Assembly: GCA_013115125.1 (NCBI GenBank)
Contig: JABANN010000295.1
Location: 1-41,828, forward strand
DNA from: Perkinsus olseni
Taxonomy: Eukaryota
Direction of reading: 5' to 3'
Length of the DNA: 41,828 nt
Positions within the stretch are counted from its first letter, which is position 1. Every line of letters starts with the position of its first letter. Both the position numbers and the translations under genes were made by a program. Below the pieces are notes generated by a model. The model saw only the letters and a program-made list of their open reading frames with translations. It was not told the DNA's origin and searched no databases. Shown in pieces: positions 9,632 to 32,800 of this stretch.

Positions 9632-9703
9632 GACCTCGTGGCGCAATGGAAGCGCGTCGGTTTCCGGAGCCGAAGGTTGCGGGTTCAAGTCCCGCCGGGG
9701 TTA
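9632..9703 (+). tRNA. tRNA-Arg (anticodon CCG)
   Basis: Full cloverleaf: acceptor GACCTCG/CGGGGTT, D arm GCGC-AATGGAA-GCGC, anticodon arm TCGGT-TTCCGGA-GCCGA, T arm GCGGG-TTCAAGT-CCCGC. Confidence 0.95.
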
Positions 9704-9928
9704 TTTAGTCTTGGCTGTCGCAGCACAATGTTGGGTTTTCTTATTCGCAAGTCTGAAGGATAGTGTACTAGCCTACGGCACACAGAAGAGCAGTAGGATT
9801 CGGCGTTTTCTGAGTGAGGGCGCTAGAGGCCTCAGCAATTCATTCTCTGAGAGCCACTTACCAATACTTCTCTTGTGGATAGTCCCCTTAAATCTTTTGA
9901 AGTCCTAGTAGTTTTTACTCTCCATCTC

Positions 9929-11816
9929 ATGGACAAGGATACAATGCCTTCTAACGAACGCTCGAACTCGCTGATGACGGAAGCCATCAGTCGCGCCGCT
10001 GTTATCGGAGGCGGAAGTTTCGGTACAGCACTCGCTTTGGTTCTTGCTAGAAAGGGATGTGAAGTATCGGTTTGGGCGAGGACTGAGGAGCAGTGCCAAA
10101 GGGTAAGCATAGAGAGCGTACGTTAGTCTCCTAAGGCTCCCTTTTTCTCTTCGGTATTTTTCTCATGTATATGAGAGAACGGAAGTGACACACACCTACG
10201 AGTGCTCTACGTCTGATCTGTTTTGTTGGCGATCGATTGACCATTGATTAGGTTAACGAAACCCGTGAGAATAAGAATTATATGCCAGGCGTCACCCTTC
10301 CAGAGTCCATCCATTGGACGAATTCCGTGGAAGAAGCCGTGGAAGGTGAGACCTCGTAGTCAGGCTCGTCCGTTCTTCGTACTAAACTCTCGATTTTTGA
10401 CTTGGTTTTTGCGCGTTGTCCAGGGATAGTCGGATCCCCTCGTTCTTCTCAGACGTCGAAATGGTGCTCCTCGTCATACCAACACAATTCCTAAGGAACT
10501 TCGTAGCATCTAACAGGTAGTTTTGAAATACGATAATATGGTCGCGAGTCACGCCTGCCAGGCGTCTTGCATCTAGAGCATTTCTCGCTTTTCTAATAGG
10601 TTGTTTGACTTAGGGCAATCCTCCCTGTCGGCGTTCCCATTGTCCTCTGTGCGAAGGGTATTGAGGTTGACTCGCTGGAAACTCCGTATCAAATCGTTGA
10701 GGATGAGCTCCCTGGTAAGCGCACGTCTGGAAGTCTTGTAGTGCGGTTGCCATGATCTGCGGTGGCAAGTTGATCACTCGGAGCCTAATCCGTCGCCTTG
10801 CCTTATGAATGCTGCTGTGTCGTTCATCTGGGGTTCTAACACCGTTCAACGGGTTCCCATATTAGGTAAATACAGCAAGTACCTAGCCGTCCTCGCTGGC
10901 CCTTCGTTTGCTAAGGAGATGGCTCAGAATCAACCCACGAACGTCACTGTAGCCTCGAAGAACAGAGAAGTCGCTACGAGGGTAGGGCCTACTTATCCAC
11001 AAGCCTGTGCCGCCGTCTCGGGAGAGCCGCTGAGTAGAGTTTTGCTAGTGTAGTTCTGTGTGGCAGGTACAAAGTCAGCTGTCCAGCCGAGAAGCTAACT
11101 TCCGTGTTTACACTTCTGATGATTTTATCGGCTGCGAGATTTGCGGTGCCGTCAAGAATGTAGGCGATTCCCTCTGACCGGATTCGCCGTAGACTCCTGC
11201 GTTTCGGTGTAGGTGCTTGCTATTGCTTCTGGAGCTTCCACTGGTTTGGGGTTCGGTAACAACACCAGAGCAGCGCTCATATGCCGAGGCCTTGCGGAAC
11301 TCAATCGCTTAGGTGAGCCTCGATAACTAACAGCTGTATTCAACCCTCCGCTGCCTTCGATTGGGAGCGGAACATTTGTCCCTGGTTTCAGCGAGAAAGA
11401 TGGGATCCAACTCAAAGTGTATGTCGGGGTTGGCTGGCGTTGGCGATTTGTTGCTGACCTGTTCTTCCGAGCTTTCCCGGAACTTTACGGTAGGATACCC
11501 GGGGTGTTCGGAGCTGGTGACCCGCTGCGTTGTTCTTAGGTCGGCTATCGACTTGCCAAAGGAGAGACGCTGGAGGAGATCAATTCCTCAATGAAGAGCG
11601 TGGCGGAGGGAGTGGCCACTGCGAAGAGTCTGTGGACACTGGCTGATCAGTTGGACGTTGACATGCCTATCAGTAAGCGCTTCAAGGCGTGAACCCTCGG
11701 ACGTGTATTGAACCTCTATCGTCGTAGGTGGCGAGGTGTACAAGGTGCTCTATGAAGGGAAAGACGTTAGAGAAGCTCTGACACTACTGCAGAGCCGTCC
11801 CCTTCGGGAAGAGTAG
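9929..11816 (+). CDS. gpsA: NAD(P)H-dependent glycerol-3-phosphate dehydrogenase (GpsA type), multi-exon
   Basis: Rossmann motif [13 protein letters not shown], then [67 protein letters not shown] and VAEGVATA. Ends PLREE* (TAG 11814-11816). First ATG could also be 9944. Confidence 0.95.
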
Positions 11817-26285: not shown

Positions 26286-26602
26286 GGGAGGAGCATCATG
26301 AAGTTTCCGAGTAATTATCAATCTCATGTTTCTGACCAATTCTTGGATCTGTTTGGCTGGAGTTATCCGAGAGGTTTTTTCCCGGGAGGGCGCTCGCGGT
26401 ATGTCTTCGATGTGTGCTAGCTTGCCCTTCTGCGCACCTTCTTGGGCGATCCTCTTCGTAGCTAGTATCGAAATTTGTCGCCAATCTACTGATCCCGGTC
26501 TGACCAGAACTCGACGGAAACGATGCTCGCTCCTTATGGCCGTCTTCATTCGGGTAGTCTCTCACCCTCTCGCAGTTCATCTAATTCTTGTTATTGTTAA
26601 AG

Positions 26603-29017
26603 ATGGTATCATCACCGTTACCCGCTCCATCCTCCATGAGAGGTTCTACGGTGGTTGAAGGCGTGTCCACCGAGAAGGGTAAGGTGAAAAGCGACGGCAA
26701 CGAGCTACGTGAGAAAGGCTACGTGACCACTGCTGCGGCCATGAGCTGGCCAACAGCGATGTGTAAACTGACCATACTCTTCTTCTTTTACTTCCTTGGG
26801 CTACTCATCTGTTTTATGCCCAAGTGTGCTGTGCGGAGGTGGGCACGCAGGGTGCAGCGGTACCTGGTCGTGTGGGTGTACGACATCCGCCCGCCGGCGT
26901 ACTCGTCGGTGAGGTTTTTGAATGTGAGAGCACCAATAAAGGGTACGAGTTTTGAACTGGATGGCATTCTCGTTCTACCGGGTGAGGGTGATAAATTTCC
27001 CTTTATACTCATCCGCACGCCCTACGGCAAAGAGACGTTAATCAATGACGCTAGGATCTATGCTGAGCGTGGGTATGGCGTACTCATTCAAGACAGTCGT
27101 GGACGGTTTGGGTCCACAGGAGAGTTCTTCCCCCTGGAAAATGAGCGCGAGGATGCAGCGGCAGCGATCGATTGGCTTGTCCACGACTGCGAGTACTACG
27201 ACGGTGAAGGCATTGGCGTGCATGGTCTGAGCTACAACGGTATGTGTGCTTACAGCTCTCTCTCCAACCCCTTGGGAAGGCAGCACGTGAAGTGCATCGT
27301 CCCCGGTATCTCTGCCTGTGAACTCTATCCCGTCATATTCGGTCACGATGGGAATCAGTGGTCCTTCGAGTTGGTATGCCGTTGGCTGTGGTTGGTGATT
27401 GGTAAAGGTGACACGAAACCTCTGCCGGGCAAGCCGATGCCGTTGAGGAAACGTGTTGAGAGGGTTGGAGTTTTGTTGCAGTAAGAATGACCTTTTTGAC
27501 GGCTAAGACAGCTGTAGTGCGACGCTGCATGCAGGTTCTTCTTCATGCGTGAAGCACCGCCATTCAGACTAGCCTACTGGAGTCTGCCGTTGGAGAACGT
27601 GGATAGTCTGCTGTTGAACGGCCAGCCTTCGGAGGTGTATCAGAAAGCTATCCGGGATACTGATGTTGATGGGGAGTTCTGGAAGCATCGGAATGTGCTG
27701 TGCGACTTGCGTAGGTTACCAGGACTGTCGGTCGGCACTTTTTGTGATCACTATATTTCCCCGCAGGGACCGACACACCGCTGGGTGGTATCCACTTCGT
27801 TGGTGGCTGGTATGACTTCTTCCTCCGCCAGATGCTCAAAGACTACACAAAAGCGAAGGCCTCTGGCCGAGGTATGGGATAGTTACAGTCACCGAAATGT
27901 CACTGAGATCTTAGGTGACGTTCGACTCACTGTGGGCAAGTTCGCTCACTGGCAGCTATTCAAGTACGTGCCACTTTACACACGGACTGTGATGGACTTC
28001 TACGACCACTACTTCGCAGCCCGTGGAAGGAAGGCTACAGACGGAGATCAGGCCTATCCCGTTACTTTGGAGATTGTACGTCCCCCTCCTAGAGGGTACG
28101 TCACTCCGTCATGGTCAGATTCAAAGTCGAGAAGATTCCGTCTCGTACTTGCATCTGACGGATTGGCCGCCTCGGGATACAGTTCCCATGAACTTGGTCA
28201 TGACCTCGAATGGGAGGCTTGTAGATGAGAAGGCAGCCATGGACCAAGAGGAGGGCGTGGTGCGGTATGGAACAGTCCTTTCAAACGAGGACGTGATCGT
28301 GGGTGATGTTACAGGTATCACTATGACCCCCGGGCCCCCACACCGGCTGTCGGAGGCACATCTTTCAATGCGAAGAACTGTGGCGAGAAATTGCAAGATG
28401 ATTTTGAGCGGGAGAGGCTCGCCAACGGGGACTTGGTCGTAGGCCTGGGGCTTGTCGAAAAATTGTCAATCGTGCCCTCCTCGAGGTCTTTACAAGTCCG
28501 CCCTTCGAGACTGATTCCCTTATCGTCGGCAATGTCAAGTGCCGGGCGACTGTGAAGTCCACCGCACAGAGCGTAGACATTGTATGCCGACTTTGTAGGG
28601 TCGACGGAAAGGGTCACTCGTATAATCTCTGCGACGGTCTGGAGCGCCTCTGGGATGTGAGTCTGCTGGGTGCCGATTGTCTCCTCTCACTGCCCAGTGC
28701 TTTAGGCAGGCTCCGCTCACACAGTGGAAGTGGACTTAGGCCCGACATGCGTATTGATCCGCAAAGGCGAGCGTGTGAGGTTGCAGATGACCAGTGCGGC
28801 ATATCCCAGGTGATCGTTAGCCCCTAGATTCTCTTGTACATGTGCTCAAGTTTTCAGGTGGCTGCGCAACTTCAACACTGGCAATAGAGACCTCGCTCGA
28901 GAGACTGAGCTTGGTCCGGTCGCGGAGCAGCAGGTCGTCGTCGGTTCGCCATCGGTGTCATTACTAAGTCTCCCAACGCTGAGGAGTGTCTCAGGAGATC
29001 ACGCACATATCGATTGA
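26603..29017 (+). CDS. CocE/NonD family serine hydrolase (peptidase S15-like) with N-terminal membrane anchor
   Basis: Motifs ILIRTPYGK, AERGYGVLIQDSRGRFGSTGEF, nucleophile GLSYNG, acid motif GGWYD, His motif VGKFAHW, YDPRAPTPAVGG, SYNLCDG, and C-terminal GERVRLQMTSAAYPR|WLRNFNTG. TGA at 29015-29017. Confidence 0.9.
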
Positions 29018-29922
29018 GTACTTTTTGTTCAGCGGGCCGGGACGTATCGAATACGTCGTACACTTTTGTTGTGCCCACAATGATACAGTCGTAGCTGTGG
29101 TTTCCCTCTTTTTTATCACCCGGTCTGTGATTTCTTGCCCGGGTACAGGCCGGTGTTGCGTTCAGTTGGCTTCGGGATAACCGTTTCCGGGAATCTACTT
29201 GCCTCTAAATGCCGATGTCTCGAGCCGTTGTGAATGATTTGGCCGAGTATAAAGAAAGAGATTAACGAGCCAGATACGCTGACATCCCTCAATACACATG
29301 ACCGATCCTCTCCCTCAAGCAAGTTATCCTGGCTCATCGCAAGGCCCTGCGAGAGGAAAATTGGCTCGATCACGGCCCACACGCGAGCCCAATGCCCGGA
29401 AAAGAGTTGCCCCGGGGGTTCAACCGTTTGAGCTGGAATTGGACCCCTGGGACTCGTGATTGGTTTTTATAGTTGTTGGATGCAACTGGGCGGCAACTTC
29501 TCAAGTGCAACCCAAGAAGCGGAGCGTTAACTGAGCCTCAGCCTAGCTGCCATAACGAAGTCTGGTCAGGAGTTCCTAGACGAAAAAGTGACATGATGCG
29601 GTGACTTCGTTGCGGTCGGCCCGCAACGGACCCCATCGAGGTGGAAATTTCACGCACACATGCTGTGAACGTCACGGATCCGAGAGGGAAAGCATACGAA
29701 GGAACATACTCATAATTTTCCTCGATCATTGCAATGCATTGCAGGAATAAGGCAGCAGCCTATCTTGTACGACCCCACATTAGCCTCCCACCCTAGTATC
29801 ACCAACGCAAGCAGGATTGATGCTAGCAGATGATTAAAATAGGTGCACTGTATGAAATTTACGAGCGGTATCTTTTCGGTCATGAGCTTCGTTCGAGTCG
29901 CACCAGCCGAAAAACGTGGTGA

Positions 29923-30478
29923 TCAGCATCCTCCCTTGAAGTCTATTCGACCGTGGGTATCGTAGAAGTCCTTCCCTTCCTGATTGACAGGGTCCGCCTC
30001 GCGATGGAAGGTTAATGGGCCAGCCTTCTCCTACATAAACGATCAACACACACAGGATGCCTCAACCTACTTTCCCCGGCATATGAAAATCAGTATCGTG
30101 TTTGTTGTCGGTAAGTTGCTGCCACTCAGAGAGGATTTCTATCCGGTATGCCTCAGTTTTCGTGAGATCGTCCTGAGGGGAGGTCAGAACTACGCTAGCC
30201 CCGACTCGCATTGGAGCCTCACCTGAAAGCCGGGCAAATTCTTGAGCTTTCTCTTCAGTTCAGAAGCTCTCATCCCTCTCGGATCAAGCGGCGTCGCCAC
30301 CATCATGTCCACATCAGTATACTTGTCAAATAGGGCCTCGCACAGCGAGCAGCATGCGGCGCATCCCGCGGTACTAGCACGCAGGAAGCCTCACCTTCGC
30401 AAGAACCGCTGGCCCACTTCCGAAAGTCAATCTGGGTACGGAGGTCGTGCAGAGTTGCCGAGCTAATCGCTGCATCAT
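29923..30478 (-). CDS. iscX: IscX (YfhJ)-like Fe-S cluster assembly protein with putative mitochondrial presequence, 4 exons, 135 aa
   Basis: Exons 30478-30395, 30336-30223, 30172-30071 and 30030-29923 are separated by phase-0 GT-AG introns of 58, 50 and 40 nt. They encode MMQRLARQLCTTSVPRLTFGSGPAVLAKALFDKYTDVDMMVATPLDPRGMRASELKRKLKNLPGFQDDLTKTEAYRIEILSEWQQL...DFKGGC*, which resembles the IscX pattern AL.D.Y.D.DP...R...L......LP.F.DD......E.I...W. Confidence 0.7.
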
Positions 30479-30615
30479 CGGCGGCACTGCGAGAAAAAAC
30501 GTCTGCGAGAGACGACATATTCCGTGACTTATACCAACGAAACGGGCGTGCAAATAGAAACTGGATCAGCCTGTAACGGTATATTAAACAGTGTCACACA
30601 ACTAGTGCGATGAAC

Positions 30616-32800
30616 TCAGTGAGCTTCATCGAACTGAGGATCTTCTTCAGGATCGATGGGAGCGATCATGACCACAGCGTTGGGTGCAAGCCCCATGTCC
30701 TGATAACACGGTGATCCAGGGATAATCCCTTCTCAGAAGATGATGTCCTCACCTTCAGGGTTCTGCCCCGCTTCCCACGAAGCTTGGTCACTGGGAACGC
30801 CGTGCTAAGCTCGAAGTACCTAAAGGACCACTCACGGACCTCGAGTTGACTCTGGCAAATACCCGAGACTGTCTTCCTCCTCTTCCTCGTTCTCTTTGCC
30901 CTGCGTCGAATCATCCACACAAACATCAGCCCAGTCGTATAGGTCTGCTACGGTGGCATCGGCCAAGAACTTCCGATCGAAGCGCTGAGGCACGACGCGT
31001 GAGGCGAGGCCAACGTACTAATAGACGAGCTTTCGAGTAGCGACCCTCCCCCTCCTGCCCCTGTCATCACTACCTTCCCGCTGGGCATCTTCAAGACGAT
31101 ATGCGCAGCACTTTGACCGGCGGCTGGCTGTGCCATACCCTCCACTCGTCGTCGCGCATTCTGCCGGCGTCTCTGTATTTTCTGTGTCCGATCCATCTCC
31201 TCCTTGGCCTCCTGCTTGGCTCCTATTTCCACCACTACTCCCCAACACTCATCATCATGCCACTTACTTTCTTCCGCCTCTTTGCGGTTTCGCTCCGCCT
31301 CTCTATCCTGGGCAAGGGCCTCCTGGTACCTATCACCACAGCTGACCGAACCAGCTAGCGTACAATCACTACTCCTGGTCCTGCTGCTGCCTCAACTCCC
31401 GATCCATCTGTTGTTGGAGCCTTACTGCCTCGACTCTACTTCGCATCTGATTCGTCCCTCTCTACCCACTCGAGTGCTCCACAATTCCCACCTCATTCTG
31501 GTCCTCAACGCACTTCAGAAGGAGTCCCGTAACTTGCTCCACTGAGCATGCGCTGTCGCCTTGCAGTACTCCACTCACACTGAATGACAGAGCAGACTTT
31601 AGGTCAGCGGCCAAGGATCCACTGGGCTCACCGGAGTTCCGAGTCCGGCTCAACTGCTGTCTGTGGACCCGTTGGGGACCCTCCGGCTGCCTTGGGCATC
31701 AGAGCACAAAGGTACGGGAAGCTGCGAGCACGCATCACCTGAAAGTGGCAAGGCGTGGAATTTCATGGCGCGCGAAAAGTATTACCCTGTAGGCCAGAGA
31801 GTAGCCTTGGGCTGTACCACAGTCAACGCCCCAAAGAACGAAGTTCTCATCCAGTAGCTGAGCAAAAGCGAAAGATGATCCCATCTGCCCCACCACCATC
31901 GTCATGCTAGGTACCTCCCGGACGGTTGAATCGCCCTGAAGAATATCCGACTTGAACTTCTCCGTCCCTTCGGCGTAGTGTGGCCCCGAGTTGTGCAGGT
32001 AGACGAAGAGAAACTTCGTCGACCTCTCCGCAGTAGACAGGGCCTGAGGACACCGGCGAGGATAGGCTGTTGGTTGTATGATATATGAAGTACTACTTGG
32101 GAGAAGGTACCTTCAAAAAACCGGGGGTGGGGTCTGGTGTCACCACCCTTCTCGAGCCACTGATTGAAGTTGTACACAGTGGTACCAGTCAAGCCAGATG
32201 TGAAGAAGCTCCAAAGACCCTGGAGATGATGATAACAGTCAAAGAGGAACCGCAGCATAGGTCACCTTGAAGCAAGCTCCGAAGAAGCCAAAGCATTTGG
32301 CGAACAAGGAGGCGACAGCTGAAAGGACCGAGCGCCACCACGGTCGCTGCTGTTGAGGTCCTCTGCCTCCAGCTGGCTCGTCCTGGGAGGCACCAAGAAG
32401 GGGGGTGGTGAGGGATGGATCTGACCTCGGCAGGTATCTCTCATCGCCACTGCCGATATTAGAGTACCAGATGACGGCCTCGTAGGGGCTACAACCCTCC
32501 TAGTGGGAGTGTAGTCAGACCTGTTGTGCCCTGATGACGACGACGACGCCGCTGCCGCTGGTATGGCCGAGGAACTAATCACCAACAAACCTCCGAAGGA
32601 CTGATCGAGCAAGCAACACCATCGTCCAGGTAGTACCTCGGCTGTGCTGCGGCCTCGTCGTTGTTGGCCAGGTGCAACGTGACAGCCCTTTCAACATCAT
32701 AATCACACACCTCCAGGAGCTGTCTGGCTCTGTCGGCTGGGATGTTAGCGATCTCAGCGACTTGGGCTACAGCCGCGTCGTGATCACTCGCCGCGACCAT
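30616..32800 (-). CDS. UBA-UAS-UBX protein (FAF2/UBXD8-like p97 adaptor)
   Basis: UBA-like start (ARQLLEVCDYDVERAVTLHL), a hydrophobic segment, UAS domain (PRFFEGTFSQ, KFLFVYLH, LLDENFVLWG), coiled coil (RELRQQQDQE|YQEALAQDRE) and UBX domain (IVLKMPSG, LERKFLADATVADLYDW, FELSTAFP, MGLAPNAVV). Stop at 30616-30618. Confidence 0.85.

What the first reader, a model, noticed from the sequence alone, without database searches (positions are those of the whole stretch)
29923..30478. Hidden eukaryotic IscX (YfhJ)-like gene with mitochondrial presequence and a novel C-terminal extension
Seen: four exons splice cleanly into a 135-aa protein that the ORF track misses. It has an Arg-rich presequence-like start (MMQRLARQLCTTSVPRL), an IscX-like core, and a tail of about 50 aa ending DFKGGC. 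Known: IscX is a small acidic bacterial iron-binding modulator of the cysteine desulfurase IscS that competes with CyaY/frataxin; in eukaryotes it has been reported mainly in Apicomplexa. Here the N-terminal WTD motif is replaced by FGS and part of the surface is basic (ELKRKLKNL). Inference: a diverged myzozoan mitochondrial ISC regulator, possibly with a new function for the Cys-terminated tail.
Basis: partly seen in the sequence, partly recalled or inferred. Interest (0 to 1): 0.75.

Follow-up and report, generated by a model that had tools for sequence, protein, structure and literature searches.

The report
Charge-neutral IscX variant with conserved tail
A shellfish parasite makes a small, probably mitochondrial protein shaped like the bacterial iron-sulfur helper IscX, but it has lost IscX's negative charge and gained a conserved tail, so it probably docks on a partner instead of carrying iron.

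Summary
The gene is real. RNA contigs of 4 of 4 runs skip exactly the three introns; a spliced-leader end fixes the start; the product is 135 aa. The organism is a Perkinsus, nearly identical to P. olseni. The core is IscX-derived: a model built without bacterial sequences has E. coli IscX as its best match among 48,161 chains (Z 8.1, rmsd 1.8 A, 65 of 66 residues; next Z 5.0). It is not a canonical IscX: core net charge is 0, against -5 to -13 in 33 bacterial IscX, and Pfam scores stay under the cut-off. The genome also holds frataxin and two further IscX paralogues with a different tail. In a published complexome the P. marinus orthologue runs at low mass, apart from NFS1 and the large complexes. 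Best reading: a non-iron-binding adaptor of the mitochondrial ISC machinery that docks through its tail (0.45); partner unknown. New variant of a known kind.

The parts
30503..30504 (-). trans-splice acceptor AG for the Perkinsus spliced leader
   Evidence: loose end of one RNA contig (run X5) matches the 3' end of PmaSL1
30479..30502 (-). 5' UTR after the leader, no upstream ATG
   Evidence: sequence; covered by contigs of X2, X3, X5
30395..30478 (-). exon 1, residues 1-28: presequence-like start (about 1-17) and start of the IscX core
30337..30394 (-). intron 1, 58 nt, GT-AG
   Evidence: skipped in 4 of 4 runs
30223..30336 (-). exon 2, residues 29-66: IscX helices 1 and 2, 8-residue loop insertion, conserved DP and DPRGM motif
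30173..30222 (-). intron 2, 50 nt, GT-AG
   Evidence: skipped in 4 of 4 runs
30071..30172 (-). exon 3, residues 67-100: IscX helix 3 with the invariant Trp, linker, first residues of the tail motif
30031..30070 (-). intron 3, 40 nt, GT-AG, interrupts the tail motif
   Evidence: skipped in 4 of 4 runs
29923..30030 (-). exon 4, residues 101-135 and stop: rest of the tail, with the conserved motifs and the Perkinsus-only terminal Cys
30004..30079 (-). conserved tail motif, residues 98-109 (consensus PGxEKAGPLTF), split by intron 3
   Evidence: 9-11 of 12 identical in 7 of 7 full-length non-Perkinsus homologues compared; invariant columns
29823..29922 (-). 3' UTR as far as RNA contigs reach
   Evidence: contigs of X2 and X5 end at 29823, X3 at 29828; the X1 contig runs on past 29000

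Best explanation
A nuclear gene for a small soluble protein imported into the mitochondrial matrix. It descends from IscX and keeps the three-helix fold, but it has lost the net negative charge with which bacterial IscX binds iron and the Arg patch of IscS. It therefore probably neither carries iron nor competes with frataxin for that patch. A short, strongly conserved motif in the unfolded tail probably took over partner binding, and the protein acts as a transient accessory or adaptor of the ISC core complex (NFS1-ISD11-ACP-ISCU), beside frataxin and two other IscX paralogues. Shown: gene, transcript, fold ancestry, charge loss, tail conservation, presence of frataxin, NFS1, ISCU and two paralogues, migration at low mass. 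Inferred: import, loss of iron binding, tail as docking peptide, ISC core as the partner.
For: Fold: best of 48,161 chains is E. coli IscX 2BZT, Z 8.1, rmsd 1.8, 65 of 66 aligned, next Z 5.0; Foldseek rank 1, prob 0.99, TM 0.75 by target, E 0.2; model from 21 eukaryote-type rows without bacterial IscX, mean pLDDT 61, core helices 73-82. Profile against E. coli IscX: prob 92.6, E 4.5e-7, pairwise. The spliced window protein scores 14.1 bits on a profile of 33 bacterial IscX; 0 of 1000 shuffles reach it, best 6.8. Bridge: homologue P0018 passes the Pfam PF04384 cut-off (25.8 against 25 bits) and carries the same tail. Charge: core net 0 (11 acidic, 11 basic), E. coli -13, 33 bacterial IscX -5 to -13; 5 of 11 acidic positions conserved in bacteria are kept; the 7 non-Perkinsus homologues are -3 to +1. 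Tail motif 9-11 of 12 identical where the core is 15-30 of 71. Partners exist: NFS1 with its Arg patch, ISCU, frataxin. P. marinus orthologue C5KRS5 is in both replicates of a mitochondria-enriched proteome, at low mass, and peaks with no large complex (PMC13623125 supplements). Precedent: Plasmodium IscX is said to lack the acidic iron ligands and not to bind iron (review PMC12974877, passage).
Against: No evidence of contact with the ISC core: in mitochondrial replicate 1 the orthologue is in slices 1-8 only, the desulfurases peak in slices 24-26; in the whole-cell gel it is in slices 5-9, 12, 16-17, the main desulfurase peaks at 20. Weak binders may fall off in such gels, but losing the acidic surface removes the only known way IscX binds IscS (PMC5801593, passages), so the link to ISC rests on ancestry. 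The mitochondrial fraction also holds ER, low slices hold breakdown products, the database model includes 33 UBX residues that could supply peptides, and DeepLoc called that faulty model cytoplasm/nucleus. The tail is not modelled with confidence (pLDDT 47-62). Which acidic residues bind iron was not read in a primary paper.
Confidence: 0.45

Rival explanations
1. The fold was repurposed: the protein left the ISC system and serves, through its tail, as a transient assembly factor or chaperone of another myzozoan mitochondrial machine (a respiratory Fe-S subunit, the mitoribosome or its fragmented RNAs).
For: Charge neutralised with a basic helix 2 on a helix-turn-helix-like fold; frataxin and two paralogues with W-x-D are there to do ISC work; myzozoans have already moved a BolA-like protein into the mitoribosome (PMC13623125 section 11).
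Against: It is not a stable subunit: no signal above slice 8 of 60 in replicate 1, one trace near slice 37 in replicate 2; no sequence match among solved structures, which include alveolate mitoribosomes.
Confidence: 0.25
2. The three IscX paralogues act together as a small hetero-oligomer, the tails being the contact surfaces.
For: All three have presequence-like starts, weakened acidity (net 0, -3, +1) and long conserved tails. The C881-type orthologue (about 15 kDa) runs at 44-64 kDa on the soluble scale, and it and C5KRS5 both have their whole-cell maximum in slice 16.
Against: In mitochondrial replicate 1 the maxima differ (slice 1 against slices 7-11) and the paralogue is about 16 times more abundant at peak. 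The gels resolve poorly at low mass.
Confidence: 0.13
3. It still works as a canonical IscX: it binds iron weakly, sits on the Arg patch of NFS1 and tunes frataxin; the tail is an add-on.
For: Fold and hydrophobic core kept; 5 of 11 conserved acidic positions kept, 8 of the 18 acidic positions of E. coli IscX in another alignment; the Arg patch of NFS1 and frataxin are present.
Against: Net charge lies outside the whole range of 33 bacterial IscX; D7, E10, E55, D63, E64 are lost, and of the kept acidic positions only D23 is shared by all 7 other homologues; Pfam and TIGR03412 scores are under their cut-offs.
Confidence: 0.13
4. The terminal Cys (GGC) is the active part, as a sulfur or metal carrier or a lipidation site.
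For: The last six residues are identical in three Perkinsus species.
Against: They are matched in 0 of 7 non-Perkinsus homologues, most of which end just after the GR motif; much of the tail is equally conserved within Perkinsus, so the Cys does not stand out.
Confidence: 0.04

Closest known systems
Bacterial IscX / YfhJ (Pfam PF04384 Fe-S_assembly, TIGR03412; E. coli structures 2BZT, 1UJ8)
   Same: Three-helix fold over 65 of 66 residues; I11/L, L15, D23-P24, L39, F42, I57, W61 kept.
   Different: Nuclear four-exon gene with presequence-like start; 8-residue loop insertion; W5-x-D7 replaced; net charge 0 against -5 to -13; 47-aa tail, whereas 33 of 33 bacterial proteins end at 65-67 residues.
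Plasmodium IscX (PF3D7_1361600)
   Same: Eukaryotic IscX said to lack the acidic iron ligands and not to bind iron (review PMC12974877, passage); listed as essential in a table of PMC8844926 (passage).
   Different: Plasmodium lacks frataxin; Perkinsus has frataxin and three IscX genes. No named apicomplexan protein was among the 11 hits of the Perkinsus profile, so it probably does not carry this tail; its sequence was not examined.
The two other Perkinsus IscX paralogues (G000:C881, equal to FOZ61_002209 / Pmar_PMAR002035 type; G000:C3024)
   Same: IscX core, presequence-like start, reduced acidity, long C-terminal extension.
   Different: They keep W-x-D and carry an unrelated tail of 65-72 aa with an internal Cys; core identity to the window protein 15-16 of 71.

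Membership tests
IscX / YfhJ (PF04384) | three-helix IscX fold | tested here: met
   Model of the P. marinus orthologue: Z 8.1, rmsd 1.8, 65 of 66 aligned to 2BZT, next Z 5.0; Foldseek rank 1, prob 0.99, but E 0.2. Z 8 alone is middling for a helical bundle; the match gains from covering the whole chain at 29% identity.
IscX / YfhJ (PF04384) | sequence homology to IscX | tested here: met
   hhalign prob 92.6, E 4.5e-7; 14.1 bits against at most 6.8 in 1000 shuffles; bridging homologue P0018 over the Pfam cut-off.
IscX / YfhJ (PF04384) | score over the curated cut-off (Pfam 25 bits; TIGR03412 40.4 bits) | tested here: not met
   Perkinsus orthologues: Pfam 14-18 bits in 3 of 5 scanned, no hit in 2; TIGR03412 17-19 bits in 3 of 4. 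Single exons of the window give no IscX hit.
IscX / YfhJ (PF04384) | strongly acidic protein with a negative iron/IscS-binding surface | tested here: not met
   Net charge 0 against -5 to -13 in 33 of 33 bacterial IscX; 5 of 11 conserved acidic positions kept. Counted on sequence, no electrostatic surface computed.
IscX / YfhJ (PF04384) | N-terminal K-W-x-D motif | tested here: not met
   W5 to F, D7 to G in the window protein; W kept in 5 of 7 other homologues, D7 as D in 0 of 7 and as E in 1.
IscX / YfhJ (PF04384) | binds the cysteine desulfurase IscS/NFS1 and competes with CyaY/frataxin | tested here: inconclusive
   No co-migration of the orthologue with the desulfurase in published native gels, which would miss weak binding.
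IscX / YfhJ (PF04384) | binds Fe2+ with low affinity | not testable with these tools
   Needs an assay.
IscX / YfhJ (PF04384) | occurs with IscS and the ISC system | tested here: met
   NFS1 at G000:C1081, ISCU at C2731, frataxin at C3053. No gene clustering: neighbours are a UBX gene and an Xaa-Pro dipeptidyl-peptidase-like gene.
Mitochondrial matrix protein with cleavable presequence | basic, acid-free N-terminus and mitochondrial location | tested here: inconclusive
   Composition fits; orthologue in a mitochondria-enriched fraction that also holds ER; no targeting predictor could be run on the corrected model.

The most novel reading that the evidence does not exclude
Myzozoan mitochondria have an unrecognised layer of Fe-S regulation built from duplicated IscX: at least two old subfamilies, each with its own conserved tail, dock on the NFS1-ISCU complex by tail peptides instead of acid-base contact, and work alongside frataxin rather than in its place. 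The tail motif would be a new NFS1-complex-binding peptide, and the essential but iron-blind IscX of Plasmodium would be a survivor of this system.
Probability: 0.25. Interest if true: 0.72.

Novelty: new variant of a known kind. Interest (0 to 1): 0.45.

Why it matters
IscX is described as confined to prokaryotes and Apicomplexa (PMC5801593, passage), and in Plasmodium it has been discussed as a stand-in for the missing frataxin, with the puzzle that it binds no iron (PMC12974877, passage). A Perkinsus genome with frataxin and three IscX genes, all weakened in acidity and extended by conserved tails, says that eukaryotic IscX is wider than Apicomplexa, is not tied to loss of frataxin, and has been remodelled. 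The short tail motif gives a precise handle for finding the partner. It also corrects four public gene models. It is a remodelled known factor, not a new kind of system, and its function is not shown.

Tried and rejected
Single exons against Pfam and solved-structure sequences: no IscX hit; pieces too short. Profiles A1 and A3 against solved-structure sequences: only chance hits, E 0.37 or worse; not found as a chain of a solved complex, which does not show absence from such complexes. First fold from 4 rows: pLDDT 54, pTM 0.23, discarded and not searched. ESM Atlas: no usable hit for P0002; hAT-like RNase-H clusters at 0.94 with 142-147 shared features for P0005, rejected because fold and profile searches point to IscX. 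LINC-PINT (PF21971) on the tail, E 0.03-0.2, under its cut-off: taken as chance. Co-folding of the P. marinus orthologue (residues 48-174) with two copies of a 210-residue exon-encoded piece of the genome's NFS1: no verdict, score 0.00, alignments not used, partner fold uncertain; not evidence either way. Idea that it is ISPR1/2 or a supercomplex subunit: rejected, ISPR genes are other loci and helical dimers (preprint 10.1101/2024.05.25.595893, passages). Idea that it is a C-terminal domain of the UBX protein: rejected, UBX has its own stop near 30615 and its own contigs, and the leader is added at 30504. A fourth IscX-like hit at G000:C970 (E 0.3): chance on reading. Tree of 20 rows: tail-A and tail-B groups separate but deep forks are open and long branches meet; no order of events or donor is claimed. 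Metagenome scan found 4 loci among 96 pattern matches, all of the P0011 type; the other homologues stay unplaced. Earlier findings of this scan: none. Paper PMC4063190 is not held.

Full report
1. The observation. The gene lies on the minus strand. Joining 30478-30395, 30336-30223, 30172-30071 and 30030-29923 gives 408 nt and a 135-aa protein with a stop. Several other donor-acceptor choices also give open frames, so sequence alone does not fix the model; RNA does. Contigs of 4 of 4 runs laid, from 4 studies, skip exactly 58, 50 and 40 nt at these GT-AG introns, with no letter differences listed. Two of the runs are RNA by record, two by guess; spliced contigs are RNA in any case. Of the 24 runs listed, 20 hold the stretch or part of it. 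One contig carries 9 foreign letters at 30504; with the genomic AG they give the last 11 nt of the Perkinsus spliced leader PmaSL1 (PMC3101222, passages). The mRNA is thus trans-spliced 24 nt before the ATG and is separate from the upstream UBX gene, which has its own stop near 30615 and its own contigs.

2. The organism and public models. The best relatives are hypothetical proteins of Perkinsus olseni (2 differences in the first 100 residues, read), P. marinus and P. chesapeaki. All four genomic models seen for full genes are faulty: two end after exon 3, one adds 33 UBX residues and 6 intron residues, one is fused to UBX. The next gene downstream, on the other strand, is an Xaa-Pro dipeptidyl-peptidase-like gene, as is Pmar_PMAR018019 beside the P. 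marinus orthologue Pmar_PMAR018018 (family read by eye from the window translation).

3. The core is IscX-derived. Orthologues hit PF04384 and TIGR03412 weakly, under the cut-offs. A profile of four Perkinsus rows found 11 proteins among 1.84 billion representatives at E up to 0.001: 3 of Perkinsus and 8 unnamed. One of the 8, P0018, passes the Pfam cut-off and has the same tail. The 12-row profile matches E. coli IscX with probability 92.6, E 4.5e-7 (pairwise). The window's own spliced protein scores 14.1 bits on a profile of 33 bacterial IscX, and none of 1000 shuffles exceeds 6.8 (33 proteins were recovered from 34 loci, which were mostly the best-scoring 30 of 80 genomes with a match among 201 searched, so they lean to typical IscX). 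An AlphaFold2 model of the P. marinus orthologue from 21 rows without bacterial IscX (mean pLDDT 61; helices 73-82) has 2BZT as its best match in both searches: Foldseek prob 0.99, TM 0.75, E 0.2; VIA-align Z 8.1, rmsd 1.8, 65 of 66 residues, next Z 5.0.

4. What has changed. Bacterial IscX binds iron and IscS through one negative surface, and the IscS mutant R220/223/225E almost abolishes binding (PMC5801593, passages). The window core has 11 acidic and 11 basic residues; E. coli IscX is -13 and the 33 bacterial proteins range from -5 to -13. Of 11 positions acidic in at least 31 of 33 bacteria, 5 are kept (17, 21, 23, 31, 44); 7, 10, 55, 63, 64 are lost, and 51 depends on the alignment. The seven full-length unnamed homologues compared are also near neutral (-3 to +1; the eighth is a fragment and was left out).

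5. The tail. All 33 bacterial proteins stop at 65-67 residues; the window protein goes on for 47. Residues 98-109 are 9-11 of 12 identical in the seven homologues, whose cores share only 15-30 of 71; a second, weaker motif (D-x-x-G-R) lies at 122-129 with 3-6 of 8; the linker and the last six residues are not kept. The terminal Cys is therefore a Perkinsus feature. The tail is poorly modelled and matches nothing solved. A short motif that is conserved better than its domain and unfolded alone is what a docking peptide looks like; that is inference.

6. Range. Four metagenome loci of the P0011 type are intron-free and gene-dense, three of them next to a bL25 gene. That bL25 matches entries 9g6k and 9i05 at E 5e-65 and 4e-64, the next entry at 2e-6; I recall these two as Toxoplasma mitoribosome structures, which would make the host a myzozoan other than Perkinsus. 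The other homologues have presequence-like starts but are unplaced. No named dinoflagellate, chromerid or apicomplexan protein was among the 11 hits; the profile was narrow, so this is not absence.

7. The ISC set of this genome. NFS1 with its Arg-rich patch (C1081), ISCU (C2731) and frataxin (C3053; weak Pfam hit, E 0.026, confirmed by reading the exons and the LWYSSP motif) are present. Two more IscX genes exist: C881 (2 of 4 Perkinsus relatives pass the Pfam cut-off; profile hits 2BZT at E 8e-4) and C3024 (model from sequence only, 148 aa). They keep W-x-D, are weakly acidic or neutral (-3, +1) and share a different tail.

8. Protein evidence. PMC13623125 (abstract, sections 6, 8, 11, supplement legends, table S3 whole, searched rows of S1, S2, S9; S1 was cut when stored) lists C5KRS5, the P. 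marinus orthologue, in both mitochondrial replicates and in whole cells. Slices run from low to high mass. In replicate 1 it is in slices 1-8 of 60 (28-47 kDa on the soluble scale, 11-21 kDa on the membrane scale); the desulfurases and an Fe-S assembly protein that is probably ISCU peak at 24-26. In whole cells it is in slices 5-9, 12, 16-17; the main desulfurase peaks at 20, with about 8% of its maximum at 16-17. So it is no stable part of a large complex or of the NFS1 complex under these conditions. Caveats: ER in the fraction, breakdown products in low slices, possible UBX peptides in the faulty model, and a DeepLoc call of cytoplasm/nucleus on that model.

9. Mechanism. Best reading (0.45): an imported, soluble, non-iron-binding IscX derivative that docks by its tail on the ISC core as a transient accessory. 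Rivals: repurposed assembly factor elsewhere in the mitochondrion (0.25); partner of the other paralogues (0.13); canonical IscX (0.13); active terminal Cys (0.04). It is an IscX homologue by descent and fold; it fails the cut-off, acidity and WxD tests, so I do not file it as a canonical IscX.

10. What is in print. 'IscX' with 'Perkinsus': 0 papers. With 'Apicomplexa', with 'Plasmodium' and 'mitochondri', with 'Toxoplasma': 5 papers each, of which I read passages of PMC5801593, PMC12974877, PMC10631705, PMC8844926 and PMC8593673 and saw the rest as listings. Two loose searches listed 25 and 15 papers without IscX or YfhJ. IscX does not occur in the main text or the 10 held supplements of the complexome paper nor in the main text of the supercomplex preprint (passages; its supplements are closed). 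The library lacks most subscription papers: the 2006 YfhJ paper, the 2021 Plasmodium ISC paper and the 2025 apicomplexan review were seen only as references, and could already mention perkinsid or dinoflagellate IscX.

11. Verdict. Observation confirmed; interpretation partly supported. New variant of a known kind. Interest 0.45: the widened range, the three paralogues beside frataxin and the conserved tail would interest an Fe-S or alveolate specialist and make a testable case, but no partner or activity is shown.

Noticed in passing
G000:C881, about 43950-44520, minus strand (L001, L098, L100): Second IscX gene with W-K-D motif, presequence-like start and a 72-aa tail with an internal Cys; P. 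marinus orthologues are abundant in the mitochondrial proteome and run at 44-64 kDa, as if oligomeric.
   Followed up: partly
G000:C3024:15765-about 16270, plus strand (L096): Third IscX gene, two exons, 148 aa by sequence, 39% identical to the C881 protein and sharing its tail; no Pfam hit on exon 2; no RNA check.
   Followed up: partly
G000:C3053, about 9700-11000, minus strand (L002): Multi-exon frataxin gene with presequence-like start; no row named frataxin in the two complexome tables searched.
   Followed up: partly
G000:C235:3325-4045 and C131:1027-1945 (L187, L188): Two further ISCU-like copies, similar to each other and with long introns, beside the plain mitochondrial ISCU at C2731; may be duplicates or pseudogenes.
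   Followed up: no
G000:C1415:47644-48330 (L091): A second, more distant cysteine-desulfurase-like gene, 32% identical to E. coli IscS.
   Followed up: no
window 30560-32000 and beyond, minus strand: UBA-UBX (FAF1-like) gene; nine introns inside the laid stretch are supported in 4 of 4 runs; it ends about 110 nt before the trans-splice site of the IscX-like gene, which explains the fused public models.
   Followed up: partly
window about 26585-28700, plus strand: Multi-exon Xaa-Pro dipeptidyl-peptidase-like gene converging on the IscX-like gene; in run X1 one contig runs from the IscX-like exons on past 29000.
   Followed up: no
L084-L087: Intron-free, gene-dense eukaryotic contigs where the tailed IscX gene lies beside a myzozoan-type bL25m and, by eye, a pantothenate-kinase-like and an ATG9-like gene.
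   Followed up: partly
G015:C4:1054523-1054941 (L214): A bacterial iscX followed by two more copies of its last 20 codons at 115-nt spacing.
   Followed up: no
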